The notes under the pieces were generated by a model. That model had not been told where the DNA came from, did no database searches, and saw only the letters and a program-made list of their open reading frames with translations. From positions 1-36,888 of IMG/VR virus record IMGVR_UViG_3300044698_000184: a stretch of 36,888 bases of DNA; one strand, written 5' to 3'. Source of the stretch: a virus. Taxonomy: Duplodnaviria > Caudoviricetes. Numbering within the stretch: position 1 is the stretch's first letter; every line of letters begins with the position of its first letter. Both the position numbers and the translations under genes were made by a program. This document shows, piece by piece, positions 1-36,888 of the stretch.

Positions 1-127
1 CGAAGACGTCACCGGATGCCAGGAGTGCGCATGACCACCATCGACGTCCACCGCACCCTCACCGCGCTCGATCTCGTCCAGTTCCTCGACGAACACGCAC
101 GACGGCAAGGCGTCGGACTCGACCAGG
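1..127. repeat. 127-bp direct terminal repeat (identical to 36762-36888); circular-assembly overlap
   Basis: Bases 1-127 equal 36762-36888. The ORF ending at 36795 couples via ATGA to the ORF at 31 across the junction. Confidence 0.97.
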
Positions 128-13159: not shown

Positions 13160-13644
13160 TGGGCGCAGGACACACGGTCGTTCGGGTCCGGCAGTCAATC
13201 GCCGGACCCGAACATGCCCATCCGGTCGGCCAACTTGTCGACATGCCCGTCGACGTCGCCGGCCGCTACCACGACGACGGCGTCGTCGACTACGTGGACG
13301 ACTACGAGGAGGAGGACGTCGTGCCGTTCGGACCCGACCGCCGCAACGTCGCACCCGCAGGCCGCCGGCCGGACGCCGAACCGGCAGGCCGACAGGCAAC
13401 TGCGGAACCGGCACGGACGGACACGTCGTCGTCGCCCGCCGGCGACAACCGCAGCAGCGCCGACGACGACAGTGAGGACGCCGGGGGCGATGATGACGGC
13501 GACGTACCGGACAACGTCGACGACGTGAAGGCTTGGGTGGGCGACGACCCGGCCCGCGCGGCCGCGGCCCTGCAGGTCGAACGTGCCCGGATCCGCGGGC
13601 CCCGCAAGACCTTGGAGCCGTGGCTCGCCGAACTGGCAGGATGA
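13159..13644 (+). CDS. head-associated hypothetical protein with C-terminal 45-aa helical module
   Basis: TGATG coupling; module shared with 14974-15330. Confidence 0.7.
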   Translation: MGAGHTVVRVRQSIAGPEHAHPVGQLVDMPVDVAGRYHDDGVVDYVDDYEEEDVVPFGPDRRNVAPAGRRPDAEPAGRQATAEPARTDTSSSPAGDNRSSADDDSEDAGGDDDGDVPDNVDDVKAWVGDDPARAAAALQVERARIRGPRKTLEPWLAELAG

Positions 13645-14973: not shown

Positions 14974-15330
14974 ATGCCTTCTGTCCCGCTGATCGGACCG
15001 GCCACCGTCGTGTGGCACGAACCGGGCCGTGGCCGCATCCGGGTCCGGTTCGACCCTGGACGGATCGTCCCGTCCGGGCCCGACGAGGAGACCGCCGCCA
15101 ACCGCATCGCTGTGCTTGCAGCAGCAAGCACACGGGGGGTGCCGGACACCGTCGACGACGTGAAGGCCTGGGTGGACGAGGACCCGGCCCGCGCCGGCAG
15201 GGCGCTGCAGGCAGAACGTGCCCGCCCCGGCGGGCCCCGCAAGACCCTGGAGCCGTGGCTGGAGGGTCTAGCCGCGCCCGACGATGACACCGGTGGCGAT
15301 GACGCCGCCGACGACCACGAGGAGTCCTGA
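14974..15330 (+). CDS. hypothetical protein with duplicated 45-aa helical module
   Basis: AAGGA RBS; VPDTVDDVKAWV...GPRKTLEPWL. Confidence 0.7.
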   Translation: MPSVPLIGPATVVWHEPGRGRIRVRFDPGRIVPSGPDEETAANRIAVLAAASTRGVPDTVDDVKAWVDEDPARAGRALQAERARPGGPRKTLEPWLEGLAAPDDDTGGDDAADDHEES

Positions 15331-28339: not shown

Positions 28340-28672
28340 GGCTGCATCCACGAACTGATCGACTGTGCCCGTTGTCGCGGCGGCGAGCAGACTGCGCGCT
28401 GCGCGCTGTATCTCCTCCGTGGCGATCACCGCGTTGTCGTCGACCTCTTTGAGCTGGTCCCGAATCTCGGCATCGGTCAACACCCCGTCCGCGACATCGC
28501 CCATGACGTTGCGAAAACGCCTGCAGGCCAGCTGCGAGTCGTCGTGTGTGCCGCTACCCGAGCTTGTCGACTCGGTGGAGCTCGTCGCCGACCTGGCCGG
28601 CGTCTGAGGATCACCTCCACACGCGACCAGCATCGACGCAGCCACCACGGCAACAATCGCCTCGCGAATCAT
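28301..28672 (-). CDS. lipoprotein, candidate lysogenic conversion/superinfection-exclusion factor
   Basis: LVAC lipobox, Ser/Thr linker, helical domain with two Cys; downstream of the integrase on the leftward strand. Confidence 0.8.
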   Translation of the reverse strand: MIREAIVAVVAASMLVACGGDPQTPARSATSSTESTSSGSGTHDDSQLACRRFRNVMGDVADGVLTDAEIRDQLKEVDDNAVIATEEIQRAARSLLAAATTGTVDQFVDAASVMSDACRSAGF

Positions 28673-28766
28673 CCCGATCCCCTTTCTGCGGACACCACCT
28701 CGAGCGGGTCCGGCCCCTACGGACTGTAGGTTGCCGCGCTCTGCGGTGTCCCGAGTTTCAGTGGAA

Positions 28767-28794
28767 CGGCCCCGACGCTGGAACGTCGGGGCCG
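28767..28794. terminator. 11-bp stem-loop downstream of the integrase
   Basis: cggccccgacg-ctggaa-cgtcggggccg. Confidence 0.6.
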
Positions 28795-28825
28795 AATCCG
28801 GGGTACTGGGCGTGACACCCCGAAC

Positions 28826-29746
28826 CTACGAAGCCCAATCCAGAGACTCCATCGCAGCCTGCACGTCGTGCTCCCATGTGCGTACGTAGATCATGGTGGT
28901 TCGCGGGTCCCGATGGCCGGTCCATGCCATCGCCACCGGCACACCGTGGGTCTTCGCAACCTTCGACGTGCCCGCGTGCTTCAACTGGTGCGTGGTCAAC
29001 TCGAGCCCCAGGTCGGCAGCAAGGTTGCGCGTCCACGACCAGATCGTCGCCGGGGTCACATGCGGACGTCCGCGGTCGCCCACGAACAGGAACGGTGAGT
29101 GGCACTGTGGCCGCCACACGTCCAGCGCCTCACGCAGCCGAGGATGCACCGGCAGGGTGGCGATGTCGCCGGTCTTGGCGCGCTGCCACGACCACCGGTC
29201 ACCGGCATCCGAGGTCCACGCAGCCCGCGCAATCTCCACACGCCGCTTGGACAGGTACAGCCCGAGCAGGACCGCGACACCTTCACGTTGCCCGTTGAGC
29301 GCCCGCCTGTGCGCTTCTCCTTCGATCTGTGCCGTGTGGTCGTCGGACGGTGCCGACGGCATCGGCTGCGGCTTACGTGGACACCTGACCGCTGTCGTGA
29401 GGTCTTCCCTGTTCGCGAACTGGCACCATCGCCCCAGCGCCGACCGGGCCCCCTTCCTCGACGAATGGGAATACGGGATGGTGTCGTCGGCCCACTGGCG
29501 CACCTGACTCCGTGTGACCGCCTCGGGGATGACCCTGTGCTGGTCGCACCATCGGTGCAACCGGTCGATCCACTTCACATATTCGGTCACGGTGGAGTCG
29601 GCGTAGCCGTGCCCCCACAGGAACGTCTCGAATGGCTCTTGCCCCAAGGATCTACCGCCTTGTCGTGTACTAGGGACGCGACAGATTGCACGAACGGAGG
29701 CGGTGAGTGTTTGCTCAAACGCACGGGTTGCGAGGAGGGCGGTCAT
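28826..29746 (-). CDS. int: tyrosine recombinase/integrase (short, XerC/D-like)
   Basis: SAM-like N-domain; catalytic R (SKRRVEI), K (AKTG), HQLKH, GH..PRTTMIY. Confidence 0.92.
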   Translation of the reverse strand: MTALLATRAFEQTLTASVRAICRVPSTRQGGRSLGQEPFETFLWGHGYADSTVTEYVKWIDRLHRWCDQHRVIPEAVTRSQVRQWADDTIPYSHSSRKGARSALGRWCQFANREDLTTAVRCPRKPQPMPSAPSDDHTAQIEGEAHRRALNGQREGVAVLLGLYLSKRRVEIARAAWTSDAGDRWSWQRAKTGDIATLPVHPRLREALDVWRPQCHSPFLFVGDRGRPHVTPATIWSWTRNLAADLGLELTTHQLKHAGTSKVAKTHGVPVAMAWTGHRDPRTTMIYVRTWEHDVQAAMESLDWAS

Positions 29747-30048
29747 GCGTAGACGCGTGCGCGGAGCCCGAAAGGCAGGCGACTGAGCAACCCCGGATTA
29801 GTGAGGTCGCGCAGAGTATCGACCCACACCTCGTGGAGCACATCGCGGGGTTCGTCCAAGGCCTCGGCGAGTGCGGTGAGTTGAGGTCCCTGGATGTCTC
29901 GGATACCGAGGCCACGTTCCCATCGCGAGATCGTGGTCTGGTGGACGTCGACGATGGTGGCGACGTCCACCGCTGAGAGTCCGAGCTCGATCCGTCTGCC
30001 GCGGATGAACTTGCCGAACGGGGTGTGCGCGGGGGCGAGGGCTGGCAC
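29743..30048 (-). CDS. immunity repressor, XRE-family HTH
   Basis: AGGAG RBS and GTG at 30048; FGKFIRGRRIELGLS..DVA..VDVHQTTISRWERG; divergent from cro. Confidence 0.88.
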   Translation of the reverse strand: MPALAPAHTPFGKFIRGRRIELGLSAVDVATIVDVHQTTISRWERGLGIRDIQGPQLTALAEALDEPRDVLHEVWVDTLRDLTNPGLLSRLPFGLRARVYA

Positions 30049-30063
30049 GGGGCGTCTCCTTCT

Positions 30064-30226
30064 GTAAGCGCGAGGCAAGTATGCGCGTGGAGCGTACAGA
30101 CCGTCAAGTAATGACGTAAGCACATTGCTCCACTTCGTAACTACAGGGCGGTAACTACGCCCATCGGGAACCCGCCCAGAGAAGTATGCACGAAACGCTT
30201 GACGCTGGTAGGCACTTCGTGCTTAC
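30064..30226. promoter_or_regulatory. divergent lysis-lysogeny switch with five GTAWGCRC operator-like boxes and two TTGACG -35 elements
   Basis: Boxes at 30064, 30079, 30116, 30184 (+) and 30219-30226 (-); TTGACG at 30199-30204 (+) and 30102-30107 (-); leftward -10-like CATACT at 30078-30083. Confidence 0.7.
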
Positions 30227-30234
30227 CTCCGAAC

Positions 30235-30495
30235 ATGCCTAGAACAGCCACCAACCCCACCCGCCGTGTCGATCCGATCGCCCGCGCCTGGGGCGACGAA
30301 ATCAAGATCCGTCGGCGGGACGCCTACACGCAGGCCGAACTCGCCTTCGAGTGCGGCGTCCACCAGACCACGATCAGCCAGGTCGAACGGGGCGTGCTGA
30401 TCCCATCCCCACGCCTTCAGCGTCAGCTGTGCAGGGTGCTCGGGCTCGACCCGCACACCGTCTACCGGCTCGTCCGCGGAACGGACGCCGCGTGA
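30235..30495 (+). CDS. Cro-like XRE HTH protein (probably leaderless mRNA)
   Basis: YTQAELAFECGVHQTTISQVERG; no RBS, ATG about 30 nt after the -35. Confidence 0.88.
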   Translation: MPRTATNPTRRVDPIARAWGDEIKIRRRDAYTQAELAFECGVHQTTISQVERGVLIPSPRLQRQLCRVLGLDPHTVYRLVRGTDAA

Positions 30496-30529
30496 ACGGC
30501 AGCCGACCGGGAGCAGGTCGCATGAGTTG

Positions 30530-30583
30530 GTCAGGGCTGGGCTCGGACCGGCAAGGCTCGTCATGGCATGGCTTGGCTGGCGC
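30530..30583 (+). repeat. upstream phased GGC-NN pentamer array (putative guide RNA unit)
   Basis: gtcAG ggcTG ggcTC ggaCC ggcAA ggcTC gtcAT ggcAT ggcTT ggct ggcgc. Confidence 0.85.
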
Positions 30584-30605
30584 ACACGAATCGTCTGTAA
30601 CGAAG

Positions 30606-30635
30606 TCCATCCCGACCGGTCCGGGTCGGGATGGA
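30606..30635 (+). other. perfect 12-bp stem-loop between the upstream array and the RAMP-like gene
   Basis: tccatcccgacc-ggtccg-ggtcgggatgga. Confidence 0.8.
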
Positions 30636-30669
30636 AGGCCATACCCCCAACAGTGAGAAGGAGTACGAC

Positions 30670-31287
30670 ATGGCCAACGATACCGCACAGGTCCACATCG
30701 ACCGCATACCCGCGGAGACCATCCGTGTCCCGCTCGTCGGCACGTCCCCGCTGATCGTCCACCGGTTTTCCGAGAAGGCGAAGCGGCAGATGCTCGACGC
30801 GATGCAAGGCCGCAAGTCACCGAAGCAGGCCAAGGACCCGGAGGCCGAGTACGAGGCGTCGTTCTACCGCCTGAAGGACGGCACGTTCGGGTTCCCGACC
30901 ATCGCCTTCAAGGCCGCGACCGTCGGGGCAGCCAGGTTCTACGCGCAGTTGACGATGACGTCGTTGAAGCAGTCCATGTTCTTCCGTGGCGAGCCGGGCG
31001 AGGACGGCCAGCAGTTGTGCAGGATCGACGGTGAACCGCGGATGCGTGAGGACGCCGTCCGGGTCGGTCGTGGCGGGTCGGACCTGCGCTACCGCGGCGA
31101 GTTCTTGGAGTGGTCTACCTACGTGGACGTGACCTACGTGACGTCGGCGCTGACCCGCGAGTCGGTCCTGTCGCTGATCGACGCGGGCGGGATGGGTGTC
31201 GGAATCGGTGAGTGGCGTCCAGAGAAGGACGGCGACTTCGGCACGTACCGCATCGACCCGACCCGGGAAGTGGAGGTGCTGGCATGA
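30670..31287 (+). CDS. standalone RAMP/Cas7-like RNA-binding protein (205 aa)
   Basis: GAAGGAG RBS. IRVPLVGTSPLIVH (beta1), GFPTIAFKAA (like IPxSxxKG) and C-terminal Gly-rich loop GVGIGEWRPEKDGDFGTY match the RAMP motif order. No other cas genes are present. Confidence 0.75.
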   Translation: MANDTAQVHIDRIPAETIRVPLVGTSPLIVHRFSEKAKRQMLDAMQGRKSPKQAKDPEAEYEASFYRLKDGTFGFPTIAFKAATVGAARFYAQLTMTSLKQSMFFRGEPGEDGQQLCRIDGEPRMREDAVRVGRGGSDLRYRGEFLEWSTYVDVTYVTSALTRESVLSLIDAGGMGVGIGEWRPEKDGDFGTYRIDPTREVEVLA

Positions 31288-31700
31288 CGTTGCGGGAACA
31301 GCTGCAGGCGATTTACGACGAGCACGGCCGGCTGACCGCAGGCCTGGTCGTGGACGCGTCGAAGGCGAAGTCCCATCCGCTGCATGCCCGGTACTGGTCG
31401 CTGGCGGACCGTGAGGCCGCGTACGAGTACCGGAAGGTGCTGGCCGCGAAGGACATCCGGTCGGTCACGGTCGTCTATCGGGAGGCCGACGAGAGCTCAC
31501 CAGCCGAACACGTGCGGGCGTTCCACGCGGTGCGCGACGAGGAGGGTGAGTACTCCTACGAGCCGGTCGAGAAGGTCGTGCAGTCCGAGTTCCTCACCAA
31601 GCTCCTGCTCGCAGACATGGAGCGCGAGTGGAAGGCGCTGAAGCGCCGGTACGACACGTTCACCGAGTTCTGGCAGATGGTGAAGTCCGATGTTGCTTGA
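31284..31700 (+). CDS. helical partner protein of the RAMP-like gene (138 aa)
   Basis: ATGA-coupled; LQAIYDEHGRLTAGLVVDAS....HPLH..Y...D.EAAYEYR...A...IRSV. Confidence 0.8.
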   Translation: MTLREQLQAIYDEHGRLTAGLVVDASKAKSHPLHARYWSLADREAAYEYRKVLAAKDIRSVTVVYREADESSPAEHVRAFHAVRDEEGEYSYEPVEKVVQSEFLTKLLLADMEREWKALKRRYDTFTEFWQMVKSDVA

Positions 31701-31712
31701 ACAGCGGAGTGA

Positions 31713-31913
31713 GGCAGGCGTGGCAGGGCAGGGCGCGGCAAGTCCGCACCCGGCGCGGCAAGGTCCGTCAGGGCAGGCACGGTTCCGCACGGCTCGGAAT
31801 GGCCGATCTGGGCTGGGCGGGGCGTGGCTAGTCGTGGCTTGGCACGGTGAGGCAGGCGTGTCTTGGCTCGGCTCGGCACGGCAGGGTGCGACCTGGCATG
31901 GCTTGGCAGGTGA
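31713..31913 (+). ncRNA. downstream phased GG(C/T)-NN pentamer array, three units split by GGCA tetramers (putative guide RNA array)
   Basis: 36 pentamers (11+15+10), 27 starting GGY; GGCA at 31713, 31772, 31851, 31905. The repeat is directly visible; RNA status is inferred. Confidence 0.75.
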
Positions 31914-31916
31914 CTC

Positions 31917-32462
31917 GTGAAGTCGCCCCGAACCGCCCCGCACCCGCAATATCCGCATAACTCCAGTTATCCGGAATCCGCGGGGCGCCGGTCGGGCCGG
32001 GCCCGGCTGCTCGCCGCAGCCGCCCTGCTGGCCTCCACCGTGCCCGCGGCACCCACCCCCTCGACCCCGGCCGCGGCTCACCATCACGTGTCGCGGCCGC
32101 GGCCGCCGGCACCCGCGGCGGGTGTCCATCCCGTCGCCACCGCGCTTGCCGGCGCGGCGCCGGCCGAGCCGAAGGCCGCCACGTGCGTCTCCTCGTGGTA
32201 CGGAGAGGCGCACCGTGGCCGGCCCACCGCGTCCGGCGTCCCGTTCGACCCTGACGCGTTGACCGCCGCGTCATGGAACCACGACTTCGGCACCCGGCTG
32301 GCTGTCACACACGGGACCCACACCGTGGTCGTGACCGTCAACGACCGTGGCCCTGCCCGGGCCCTGAACCGCTGCGTGGACCTGTCCGCCGCAGCGTTCG
32401 CCCGGCTCGCCGACCTCGACGCCGGCCTGATCGACGTGACCGTCGAGGAGGTCGCCCCGTGA
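31917..32462 (+). CDS. RlpA-like (DPBB) secreted lytic transglycosylase
   Basis: SWYG...GRPTASG..FDPDALTAAS...FGTRL.VT...VVVTVNDRGP...VDLS.AAF. Confidence 0.9.
   Translation: MKSPRTAPHPQYPHNSSYPESAGRRSGRARLLAAAALLASTVPAAPTPSTPAAAHHHVSRPRPPAPAAGVHPVATALAGAAPAEPKAATCVSSWYGEAHRGRPTASGVPFDPDALTAASWNHDFGTRLAVTHGTHTVVVTVNDRGPARALNRCVDLSAAAFARLADLDAGLIDVTVEEVAP
31950..31977. other. dif-like 11-6-11 tyrosine-recombinase core site
   Basis: tatccgcataa-ctccag-ttatccggaat. Confidence 0.45.
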
Positions 32463-32611
32463 ACGACCTCACCATGCATGCGGTGCTGCTGCTCGTCGTC
32501 GGGATCATGCTGGTCGCCGTCGGCGTCCTCGCCTGGCGTGACACCCGCTACGGCGGGGCGCTGCTCGGCTGCCTCGGCGTTCTCGCGCTCGCCCAGGCGG
32601 TGCTGGCATGA
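32459..32611 (+). CDS. small 2-TM protein
   Basis: GTGA/ATGA overlaps; hydrophobic. Confidence 0.65.
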   Translation: MNDLTMHAVLLLVVGIMLVAVGVLAWRDTRYGGALLGCLGVLALAQAVLA

Positions 32612-35241: not shown

Positions 35242-35615
35242 CCCGAGACCAGTGGACGTTGGACGTCCCTGACGCGCCGTACGCGACGCCCAACAGCCGG
35301 CAGCACGCCGCCAAACGGGGCGCGATGGGTGCCGTGTGGCGTGAAGCGACCGCCTGGATCGCGCTCGCACAGAAGGTCCCCAAGGACCTGCAGAAGATCC
35401 GGGTGCAGCTAGTGATGCTGCCTGCCGACGCCCGGGCGCGCGACGAGGACAACCTGGTCTCCGGGGTGCTCAAGCACATGATCGACGGCCTGGTCGACGC
35501 CGGCATCGTCTGTGACGACACCCCGGACCACGTCGTGGCCGAGATGCCACGCATCCATGCGCCCGCGCAGCGCACCTGCCACCGGTGGCTGCTCACCATC
35601 ACCAGGCTGGCCTGA
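35238..35615 (+). CDS. RusA-like Holliday junction resolvase
   Basis: RARDEDNL....KHMIDGLVDAGIVCDD. Confidence 0.85.
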   Translation: MTRDQWTLDVPDAPYATPNSRQHAAKRGAMGAVWREATAWIALAQKVPKDLQKIRVQLVMLPADARARDEDNLVSGVLKHMIDGLVDAGIVCDDTPDHVVAEMPRIHAPAQRTCHRWLLTITRLA

Positions 35616-35698
35616 CCTATCACGAGGGGAGTACCACCAGTGCCTTGCAACATCCCGAACCGGAATCACAACGGTGATGTTCCACGGTGGTGGTTCCC

Positions 35699-36580
35699 AT
35701 GAGCGCCGAAGCCGTCGGGTGGGTGTTCCGCCATTCGCCCTACTCCGGCCTCAAGTTCGCGGTCCACCTCGCGATCGCCGACTCCGTCAACGACCAGCAC
35801 GACCAGGAACTGTGGATGTCCCAGTCCCGTCTGGCATCCAAGGCCCGGTGCTCCCGCCCCCGCGCGAACGAGGCCCTGGTCGAGCTTGTCGACGACGGGT
35901 ACCTCGTCCTGCTCGAGGAGCACGTCGGCAGAGCAAACCGGTACCGGTTCGTGTTCCCGGACGTGCCGGTGTCCTACGAGTCCCGACCTCGCAAGGCCAC
36001 CCTGAACACCGGCGGACCTGTTCCGTCACGGAACACCCCCCCGAACGACCAGGTGTCACCTGGCGGAACACCACCTGTTCCGTCACGGAACACCCACCTG
36101 TTCCGTGGCGGAACACCACCTGTTCCCTCACGGAACACAGAACCCAAGAAACCCAAGGCTGGAACCCAACCTCCACCTCCCGCACGACGGTCGCAACTCC
36201 TCGACGACCTGGCCGCGATCGGCCGGGAGGAGGCGGAGGAACATCTCACCCAGATCCGCCGGCGGCTGCACGGCGACCTGCCCGGACGTCTCGACTGCGA
36301 CCCGGCCGCCGACGACCTCCTCGACGCCCTGGTCGAGATCGCCGCCCGCGGTTGGACCCCGCCGCAGGCTGCCGTCGCGCTCACCGCCGACCCGCTCGGC
36401 GACGCCCGGTCGATCGCCCGCGTCCTGGCAGCCCGGGCCCGTCACCTCGCCGACCTCGACCCGCCGCAGCACCGCAGTACCGCAGCAGCGCAGGACTGCC
36501 GAACCTGCGCCGGGTCCGGCTGGATCGCCGCCACCGACGAACGGGCCGTGGTGGCCTGCCCCTGCAAGGCCGCAGCATGA
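35699..36580 (+). CDS. replication initiator with N-terminal winged HTH (lambda O-like layout)
   Basis: MSAEAVGWV...VHLAIAD...WMSQSRLASKARCSR...LVELVDDGYL...NRY; internal iterons; C-terminal CxxCxGxGW...CPC. Confidence 0.82.
   Translation: MSAEAVGWVFRHSPYSGLKFAVHLAIADSVNDQHDQELWMSQSRLASKARCSRPRANEALVELVDDGYLVLLEEHVGRANRYRFVFPDVPVSYESRPRKATLNTGGPVPSRNTPPNDQVSPGGTPPVPSRNTHLFRGGTPPVPSRNTEPKKPKAGTQPPPPARRSQLLDDLAAIGREEAEEHLTQIRRRLHGDLPGRLDCDPAADDLLDALVEIAARGWTPPQAAVALTADPLGDARSIARVLAARARHLADLDPPQHRSTAAAQDCRTCAGSGWIAATDERAVVACPCKAAA
36016..36170 (+). repeat. iteron array / probable replication origin
   Basis: Four 22-bp ACCTGTTCCGTCACGGAACACC-type copies (36016, 36073, 36096, 36118), one degenerate copy (about 36053), then three AACCCAA. 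Confidence 0.85.
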
Positions 36581-36795
36581 GCTGGGCCACCCTCGCCGCC
36601 GAACTCGAAGGGTCCACCGACCTCGGCGTCGACCTGGTTGACCGTGCCGCCGCCCACGGGCTGACCGTCACCGACGACGACCAGGTCCTCGACGGGCTGG
36701 CCAACACCGGCCTCGAGCTCTGCCCCGGCTGCGGATGGTTCGTCGCCACCAACGACCTACGCGAAGACGTCACCGGATGCCAGGAGTGCGCATGA
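36577..36795 (+). CDS. small Zn-ribbon protein
   Basis: ATGA overlaps; CPGCGW...CQEC. Confidence 0.65.
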   Translation: MSWATLAAELEGSTDLGVDLVDRAAAHGLTVTDDDQVLDGLANTGLELCPGCGWFVATNDLREDVTGCQECA

Positions 36796-36888
36796 CCACC
36801 ATCGACGTCCACCGCACCCTCACCGCGCTCGATCTCGTCCAGTTCCTCGACGAACACGCACGACGGCAAGGCGTCGGACTCGACCAGG
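36762..36888. repeat. terminal repeat copy of 1-127
   Basis: Exact match to the window start. Confidence 0.97.

What the first reader, a model, noticed from the sequence alone, without database searches (positions are those of the whole stretch)
30530..31913. Standalone Cas7/RAMP-like gene plus partner gene bracketed by GGY-NN pentamer arrays: candidate CRISPR-independent RNA-guided phage system
Seen: directly after cro lies a compact cassette of pentamer array, 12-bp hairpin, 205-aa gene, ATGA-coupled 138-aa gene and a longer pentamer array. Both arrays are on the sense strand, with a constant GG(C/T) triplet and a variable dinucleotide every 5 nt. Established: RAMP/Cas7 proteins have an N-terminal beta strand (xSPLxI), an IPxSxxKG-type helix start and a C-terminal Gly-rich loop, and polymerise along guide RNA with a fixed period. 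The 205-aa protein shows these motifs in order (VGTSPLIVH, GFPTIAFKAA, GVGIGEWRPEKDGDFG). The genome has no cas1/2/3/5/6/10 and no repeat-spacer CRISPR array. Inference: each subunit binds one GGY and displays the NN for pairing, giving a non-contiguous guide code that a temperate phage could use early in infection against competing phages or host genes, probably by binding or repression since no nuclease motif is evident. From memory this resembles recently reported VIPR-type systems; I cannot verify that here.
Basis: partly seen in the sequence, partly recalled or inferred. Interest (0 to 1): 0.96.

Follow-up and report, generated by a model that had tools for sequence, protein, structure and literature searches.

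The report
Actinophage VIPR with staggered guides
This complete phage genome, likely from an actinobacterial host, carries a copy of VIPR, a small CRISPR-related system published in 2026 that silences DNA with five-letter-repeat guide RNAs; its four predicted guides sit mostly back to back, one may aim at a rival phage's capsid gene, and it is a new example of a known kind.

Summary
The 205-aa protein models as a RAMP/Cas7 fold (best Z 10.7). Its only significant sequence match in the PDB is SUSP1 Vipr (profile E 5e-7), and it keeps five guide-reading residues. The 138-aa partner looks winged-helix-like and is unlike SUSP1 Vap1. The arrays are real but not uniform: 33 of 45 units start GGY, and the downstream tract is three guides joined by one-base GGCA|G overlaps, the published but bench-untested 'staggered' layout. 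48 of 49 homologous loci with enough flank carry sense-strand arrays. Guides from three other loci match this vipr gene under the one-base-skip code, skipping wobble positions, which supports that code in this clade. Own targets are unproven. The upstream guide matches a Hiyaavirus-like capsid gene 18/18, but matches of that length also arise by chance. No target was found for the other three guides. This scan has already reported many staggered VIPR loci on other DNA. Verdict: new member of a known kind; moderate interest.

The parts
30235..30495 (+). cro-like HTH gene (context); the cassette follows it in the same direction, likely on the early lytic transcript
   Evidence: Pfam HTH_3 E 5.7e-11; divergent cI-like HTH gene and tyrosine integrase on the - strand
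30530..30579 (+). predicted upstream vrRNA U: 9 units (30530-30574) closed by a junction-like GGCT|GGC
   Evidence: 7 of 10 in-phase GGY; 0 of 300 shuffles reach this
30606..30635 (+). 12-bp perfect hairpin between guide U and the vipr ribosome-binding site; likely 3' cap of U or a processing/attenuation element
   Evidence: stems of 8 bp or more within 80 nt before vipr in 12 of 24 loci with an upstream array (0.8 expected) and 14 of 68 without (2.6 expected)
30670..31287 (+). vipr: stand-alone RAMP protein, 205 aa (PHROG 4652)
   Evidence: SUSP1 Vipr profile E 5.2e-7; AF2 model pLDDT 85; Csm3/Cmr/Cas7 top fold hits; H31, R142, E181, W182, R183 align to SUSP1 H17, R138, D177, W178, R179
31284..31700 (+). 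vap: accessory protein, 138 aa (PHROG 15946); winged-helix-like residues 1-99 plus C-terminal helices, predicted DNA binder
   Evidence: model pLDDT 93; best Z 7.2, rmsd 3.2, 70 aligned, to a forkhead domain, with Fur and MarR domains close behind; homolog in 37 of 49 loci with enough flank
31713..31775 (+). opening junction plus predicted vrRNA A (11 units, 31717-31771) and its GGCA junction
31776..31854 (+). predicted vrRNA B (15 units, 31776-31850) and its GGCA junction
31855..31913 (+). predicted vrRNA C (10 units, 31855-31904), closing GGCA junction and one trailing unit

Best explanation
This is a phage VIPR cassette with a staggered guide array, in which Vipr subunits likely polymerise one per five-base unit on four guide RNAs and would silence, without cutting, gapped DNA sites in competing phages. 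Shown here: the anatomy, the RAMP fold of the model, homology to SUSP1 Vipr, kept GGY-reading residues, and the clade-wide link to sense-strand staggered arrays. Taken from the SUSP1 and P. fulva systems: each subunit buries a GGY and shows NN; NN pairs read double-stranded DNA skipping every third base; binding represses transcription. Inferred: the cassette is transcribed from the early lytic promoter behind cro. Each GGCA|G slip breaks the filament register, so separate filaments form and the junction is cut or simply left bare. The winged-helix Vap strengthens the roadblock on DNA. Targets are rival temperate phages of the same host; the lead for guide U, a P22-coat-family capsid gene, has odds of about 1 in 4.
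For: Only PDB sequence hit of the single protein is SUSP1 Vipr (E 1.1e-3; profile E 5.2e-7; hhalign 95.8% over 62 columns). The model's top fold hits are Cmr/Csm3/Cas7 RAMPs (Z 10.7, rmsd 3.5, 151 aligned; Foldseek E 3e-6). Five SUSP1 GGY-contact residues are kept or conservatively changed (contacts from .720927). Guide lengths of 9-15 units fit the published 9-16. Sense arrays occur in 67 of 99 homologous loci and antisense arrays in 0 of 99. Of the 49 loci with at least 700 nt downstream, 48 have an array, 42 a staggered junction and 37 a Vap homolog (about five loci are near-duplicates). 254 of 266 one-base slips are GGCA|GGY. Of 213 foreign guides, 5 match this genome at 80% or better with a one-base skip, and 3 of the 5 fall in vipr (1.7% of the genome), all skipping codon position 3; shuffled guides and other skips give none in vipr. 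The sites are early and late codons, as reported for anti-vipr guides (.759431). No self-target: best 14-19 of 22-32 bases.
Against: Similarity to SUSP1 Vipr covers only the C-terminal 60-75 residues. The SUSP1 DNA-contact residues K33, R39, G87 and K88 are not kept in my alignment (K82 aligns to R89), although that region aligns poorly. The partner shows no similarity to SUSP1 Vap1, and its fold score is under the level the tool calls distinctive. 12 of 45 units lack GGY, and GGY changes abolished silencing in SUSP1. There is no invariant tail after each guide. No convincing target was found for A, B or C. The anti-vipr signal rests on three guides at 82-85%.
Confidence: 0.88

Rival explanations
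1. The cassette is a true VIPR relative but is decaying or partly dead: the guides have drifted and no longer hit anything.
For: 12 of 45 units are degenerate. No firm target was found for any guide. U and C share 11 of 18 NN bases (0.2% of between-locus and 0.5% of within-locus pairs do), as if copied and drifted.
Against: Both genes are intact and coupled. Degenerate units are common across the clade (1,214 GGY among about 1,450 internal units). All junctions are kept. No close relative of this phage turned up in the collections searched, so missing targets are expected.
Confidence: 0.07
2. Staggered-array VIPRs use the same parts but act mainly on RNA, on host genes or on the phage's own lysis-lysogeny switch rather than on rival phage DNA.
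For: The cassette sits directly behind the cI/cro switch. The nearest folds are the RNA-targeting Csm3/Cmr backbones. SUSP1 VIPR can pair with ssRNA in vitro. The host genome was not available to search.
Against: No self-target. Foreign guides hit vipr on both strands (two on -, one on +), which fits DNA. The partner looks like a DNA-binding winged helix.
Confidence: 0.04
3. The arrays are GC-rich simple repeats or short ORFs unrelated to the protein.
For: The genome is 69% GC. Cultured phages annotate 'hypothetical proteins' over such tracts.
Against: Strict strand bias and linkage, shuffle controls, fixed junction word, homology to a protein shown to bind such RNA.
Confidence: 0.01

Closest known systems
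VIPR systems with 'staggered' vrRNA arrays (bioRxiv 10.64898/2026.04.26.720920, results text and legend of fig. S18)
   Same: vipr plus one vap in a phage; guides of alternating GGY/NN overlapping by one base; no cas genes, no CRISPR array
   Different: Nothing categorical. This locus also has a lone upstream guide followed by a hairpin. The type number (I-VII) could not be assigned because figure 5 and data S4 were not visible. The paper confirms ribozyme and single-guide layouts by RNA sequencing, not the staggered one.
Type II VIPR of coliphage SUSP1 and the Pseudomonas fulva prophage (PDB 36pp; 10.64898/2026.04.26.720927; 10.64898/2026.10.15.759431)
   Same: homologous Vipr; GGY-reading residues kept; guide - vipr - vap - guide array order; vipr gene matched by rivals' guides at early and late codons
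   Different: 27% identity over 75 residues only; no invariant pseudoknot tail per guide; partner unrelated in sequence to Vap1; likely actinobacterial host
Class 1 CRISPR RAMP backbones (Csm3, Cmr4/Cmr6, type VII Cas7)
   Same: RRM core, thumb, glycine-rich loop in the model; polymer along a guide (from the literature)
   Different: 7-18% identity; no repeat-spacer array, no other cas genes; five-base guide unit with three-base target step instead of contiguous pairing
Unnamed homologs in cultured Gordonia phages (Pipp, UmaThurman, Ecliptus, ODay) and Mycobacterium phages (Donkeykong and others)
   Same: 62-65% and 48% identity; Pipp, Ecliptus and Donkeykong carry staggered arrays; Pipp and Ecliptus carry the same Vap family
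   Different: annotated only as hypothetical proteins; array between vipr and vap (Pipp, Ecliptus) or upstream (Donkeykong)

Membership tests
VIPR | Stand-alone RAMP with RRM core, thumb and G-loop | tested here: met
   AF2 pLDDT 85; top rows all Cmr/Csm/Cas7, Z 10.7, rmsd 3.5, 151 aligned
VIPR | Homology to a characterised Vipr | tested here: met
   SUSP1 Vipr 36pp, profile E 5.2e-7; hhalign 95.8%
VIPR | GGY-reading residues (SUSP1 H17, R138, D177, W178, R179) | tested here: met
   H31, R142, E181, W182, R183; R142, E181, W182, R183 invariant in 97 homologs
VIPR | DNA-contact residues (SUSP1 K33, R39, K82, G87, K88) | tested here: inconclusive
   K82 aligns to R89; the others are not kept in a poorly aligned region
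VIPR | Minimal locus: vipr + vap, no cas genes, no CRISPR array, in a virus | tested here: met
   complete circular phage genome (127-nt end repeat); not every ORF was scanned
VIPR | Flanking non-coding tracts of 9-16 YNNGG units | tested here: met
   9, 11, 15 and 10 units; controls; clade-wide
VIPR | vrRNAs are expressed and bound by Vipr | not testable with these tools
   needs small-RNA sequencing and pull-down
VIPR | Targets follow the one-base-skip rule | tested here: inconclusive
   Supported for the clade (3 of 5 foreign-guide hits in vipr, wobble-aligned; 21/22 hit). Own guides: one chance-level lead and three without target.
VIPR, staggered-array layout | Successive guides overlap by one base | tested here: met
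   four GGCA|GGY slips downstream
VIPR type II (SUSP1) | Invariant structured tail after each guide; vap1 partner | tested here: not met
   downstream guides abut without tails; no similarity to SUSP1 Vap1
VIPR types I, III-VII | Placement by Vipr phylogeny and vap family | not testable with these tools
   reference tree and data S4 not visible
CRISPR-Cas class 1 | Repeat-spacer array and cas operon | tested here: not met

The most novel reading that the evidence does not exclude
Staggered VIPR arrays need no tail or dedicated nuclease: the one-base GGCA|G slip alone divides one transcript into independent guide filaments. This temperate actinophage uses guide U to silence the capsid gene of Hiyaavirus-like rivals, while rivals' guides silence its own vipr. 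That would be a guide-versus-guide arms race in actinophages that can be tested at once in cultured Gordonia and Mycobacterium phages, and a natural design for multiplexed guides.
Probability: 0.18. Interest if true: 0.62.

Novelty: new member of a known kind. Interest (0 to 1): 0.33.

Why it matters
VIPR is proposed as a forerunner of CRISPR effectors and as a compact programmable repressor, but in the text I read the functional work is on type II systems of E. coli and Pseudomonas phages. The staggered layout is described without bench confirmation, so how its guides are separated is open. This compact locus (1.4 kb, four guides) and its 62-65% identical relatives in cultured Gordonia phages make that question testable. 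The wobble-aligned anti-vipr matches suggest the published code and anti-VIPR conflict extend to this clade. The locus itself adds no new component.

Tried and rejected
Family scans: no informative Pfam, NCBIfam or PADLOC family for either protein and no Rfam match in 29700-32500.

Target searches under the one-base-skip rule. Guide B: a 9-unit exact scan of IMG/VR gave 0. A 7-unit scan returned 120 of about 210 stretches, best 22 of 32. The 5' 8 units gave 61 hits, best 23 of 32. Guide A: one 9-unit hit, 18 of 24. Guide C: 24 hits, best 20 of 22, in a 45% GC contig and judged chance. Guides A, B (3' 11 units) and C with up to 3 mismatches matched 0 of 23 related phage records, and no guide beat its shuffles on 100 VIPR loci. 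Guide U: the 29 exact 9-unit matches in GTDB are scattered over many phyla; two actinobacterial MAG hits lie in a patatin-like gene at 44-46% GC; all were rejected as chance. Foreign guides show no clear excess on the Galactica genome and the other cultured-phage loci scanned with it (4 vs 2 shuffled).

The hairpin region as a whole folds no better than shuffles (z -1.25), so the case for it rests on the clade count. No sigma-70 promoter or terminator was found for the cassette.

No RNA holder listed. The one DNA run may be the source itself, so it is not independent. Left open: whether a phage with the matching capsid site occurs in the same sample, whether Vipr and Vap are predicted to bind each other, and the deep profile search for remote relatives; none of these gave a result.

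Full report
Setting. The window is a whole phage record, 69% GC, closed by a 127-nt end repeat. It has terminase, portal, capsid, tail, WhiB, a tyrosine integrase and divergent cI-like and cro-like HTH genes. The only run holding it is a sediment metagenome that may be its source; one contig there matches 28500-32220 without differences.

Observation. The arrays exceed chance: 7 and 8 GGY in ten in-phase units, against at most 5 elsewhere in the genome and 4-6 in 30 shuffled genomes; local shuffles reach these scores in 0 and 1 of 300. Only 33 of 45 units begin GGY. The downstream tract slips register by one base four times, always at GGCA|GGY, which divides it into guides of 11, 15 and 10 units; the upstream guide has 9.

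The protein. It has 3,949 homologs at E 0.001 or better among 4,129 candidates and belongs to PHROG 4652, of unknown function. Its only PDB sequence hit is SUSP1 Vipr (E 1.1e-3; profile of 97 sequences E 5.2e-7, where a second row scores E 0.1). The AlphaFold2 model (pLDDT 85) matches Cmr, Csm3 and Cas7 RAMPs (Z 10.7, rmsd 3.5, 151 aligned); those structure libraries returned no Vipr chain. SUSP1 residues that read GGY (H17, R138, D177, W178, R179; 10.64898/2026.04.26.720927) align to H31, R142, E181, W182 and R183. Against: sequence similarity is limited to the C-terminal third, and the DNA-contact residues K33, R39, G87 and K88 are not kept in that alignment.

The partner. It is 138 aa, PHROG 15946, with 74 hits among 121 candidates, one of them itself, and nearest Atlas clusters that are mostly viral and unnamed. 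The model (pLDDT 93) resembles winged-helix domains over residues 1-99 (best Z 7.2, rmsd 3.2, 70 aligned), a score that may reflect only a common arrangement. It shows no similarity to SUSP1 Vap1. The discovery paper lists winged-helix-like Vaps among its predicted DNA binders. No nuclease family was hit.

Relatives. Among 99 homologous loci (15 IMG/VR, 4 cultured phages, 80 metagenome contigs; about five near-duplicates; many short), 67 have a sense-strand array within 1.5 kb and none an antisense one. Of the 49 with at least 700 nt downstream, 48 have an array, 42 a staggered junction and 37 a Vap homolog. Of 341 adjacent runs, 266 are offset by one base, 254 of these at GGCA|GGY; most segments hold 9-11 units. 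Stems of 8 bp or more precede vipr in 12 of 24 loci with an upstream array (0.8 expected) and 14 of 68 without (2.6 expected), Fisher p 0.009. The hairpin's shape recurs while its sequence varies.

What is published. I read the whole text of 10.64898/2026.04.26.720920 (figures not visible; supplement PDF searched; data files not seen, and they bear on the type assignment). I read parts 1-2 of 6 plus passages of .720927 and parts 1-3 of 8 plus passages of 10.64898/2026.10.15.759431. They define VIPR as vipr plus vap with vrRNAs of 9-16 YNNGG units that read dsDNA with a one-base skip, usually at the wobble position, and repress transcription. 'Staggered' arrays with one-base overlaps are described (fig. 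S18 legend), but only the ribozyme and single-guide layouts were confirmed by RNA sequencing. Searches for the system's name and for 'vrRNA' with 'staggered' listed three papers and one paper. Earlier notes of this scan report many staggered VIPR loci on other DNA and none on this genome.

Does the code hold in this clade? I extracted 454 distinct guides from homologous loci. Of the 213 with 10-17 units, 5 match this genome at 80% or better with a one-base skip, and 3 fall inside vipr, which is 1.7% of the genome: L146 18/22 at 30703-30735, L209 18/22 at 30727-30759 and L157 22/26 at 31242-31280. All three skip codon position 3. Shuffled guides give 2.7 hits per round and none in vipr; skips 0, 2 and 3 give 1, 2 and 0 hits, none in vipr. 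The L209 guide matches another vipr at 21/22. Early and late codons of vipr are where the third preprint places anti-vipr guides. The numbers are small, but this is direct support for the published code here.

Own targets. No self-target. Guide U matches, 18 of 18 and wobble-aligned on the antisense strand, the P22-coat (PF11651) major capsid gene of a 68% GC phage contig, L271. It matches Streptomyces phages Galactica, Hiyaa and Spocter at 17 of 18 and Keanu at 16; these were chosen because of the hit and are not independent. For: L271 is the only one of 41 eight-unit hits with GC of 62% or more, and it is an essential gene of an actinophage. Against: 9 of those 41 extend to nine units, in three unrelated groups, and GTDB gives 29 exact nine-unit matches across phyla, so this length is at chance level. 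Only 4 of 121 family members carry the matching NIMDFGEQL peptide, and no other guide hits these genomes. I put the lead at about 1 in 4. Guides A, B and C have no credible target. U and C share 11 of 18 variable bases in register, seen in 0.2-0.5% of other pairs, which suggests a shared origin.

Mechanism and verdict. Most likely the cassette is read from the early lytic transcript behind cro (inferred from gene order). Vipr would coat each in-register segment, one subunit per unit (by homology). The one-base slips would separate filaments and perhaps expose a cut site (inferred; untested in the papers I read). The complexes, aided by a DNA-binding Vap, would block transcription of rival phages' genes without cutting (by homology). 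Membership in VIPR is met on fold, homology, key residues, locus and guides; type II features are not met; expression and own targets are untested. It is a new member of a known kind. Interest 0.33: a clean, small example of a layout that still lacks bench data, with cultured relatives that make the test easy.

Noticed in passing
L017:4617-4886 (Gordonia phage Pipp gp43); L018:3501-3887 (Mycobacterium phage Donkeykong gp48): Annotated 'hypothetical proteins' lie over staggered vrRNA arrays and are probably not proteins. 34 phage records (27 Mycobacterium, 5 Gordonia; some are duplicate deposits) carry an unnamed Vipr homolog.
   Followed up: partly
window 30703-30759 and 31242-31280: This vipr gene is matched by guides of loci L146, L209 and L157 under the one-base-skip code, wobble-aligned.
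   Followed up: yes
window 30530-30580 and 31860-31910: Guides U and C are 78% alike, with non-GGY units at the same two positions, suggesting growth by duplication.
   Followed up: partly
L006:4066-4543 and other loci: A second junction type occurs in some relatives: a slip nine bases after the last GGY, often GGCAGTCnn|GGY (67 of 341 junctions have offset 9).
   Followed up: no
L005, L012, L014, L004: Very long staggered arrays (2-3 kb, dozens of guides) in 114-177 kb phages; L004 also has a run of identical three-unit repeats.
   Followed up: no
window 36016-36143: Four 26-nt direct repeats, each holding a short palindrome, inside the 427-aa ORF 35512-36795; iteron-like, possibly the replication origin.
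   Followed up: no
window 13504-13625 and 15139-15260: A 122-nt segment is duplicated at 86% identity in the structural region.
   Followed up: no
window 31917-32462: An RlpA-like lytic transglycosylase (DPBB_1) gene starts right behind the array; a 9-pair stem lies within 80 nt after the array.
   Followed up: no
window 30107-30078 (- strand): One sigma-70-like promoter match pointing at the cI-like gene.
   Followed up: no
window 1-127 and 36762-36888: Identical end repeat: the genome is circular and complete.
   Followed up: yes
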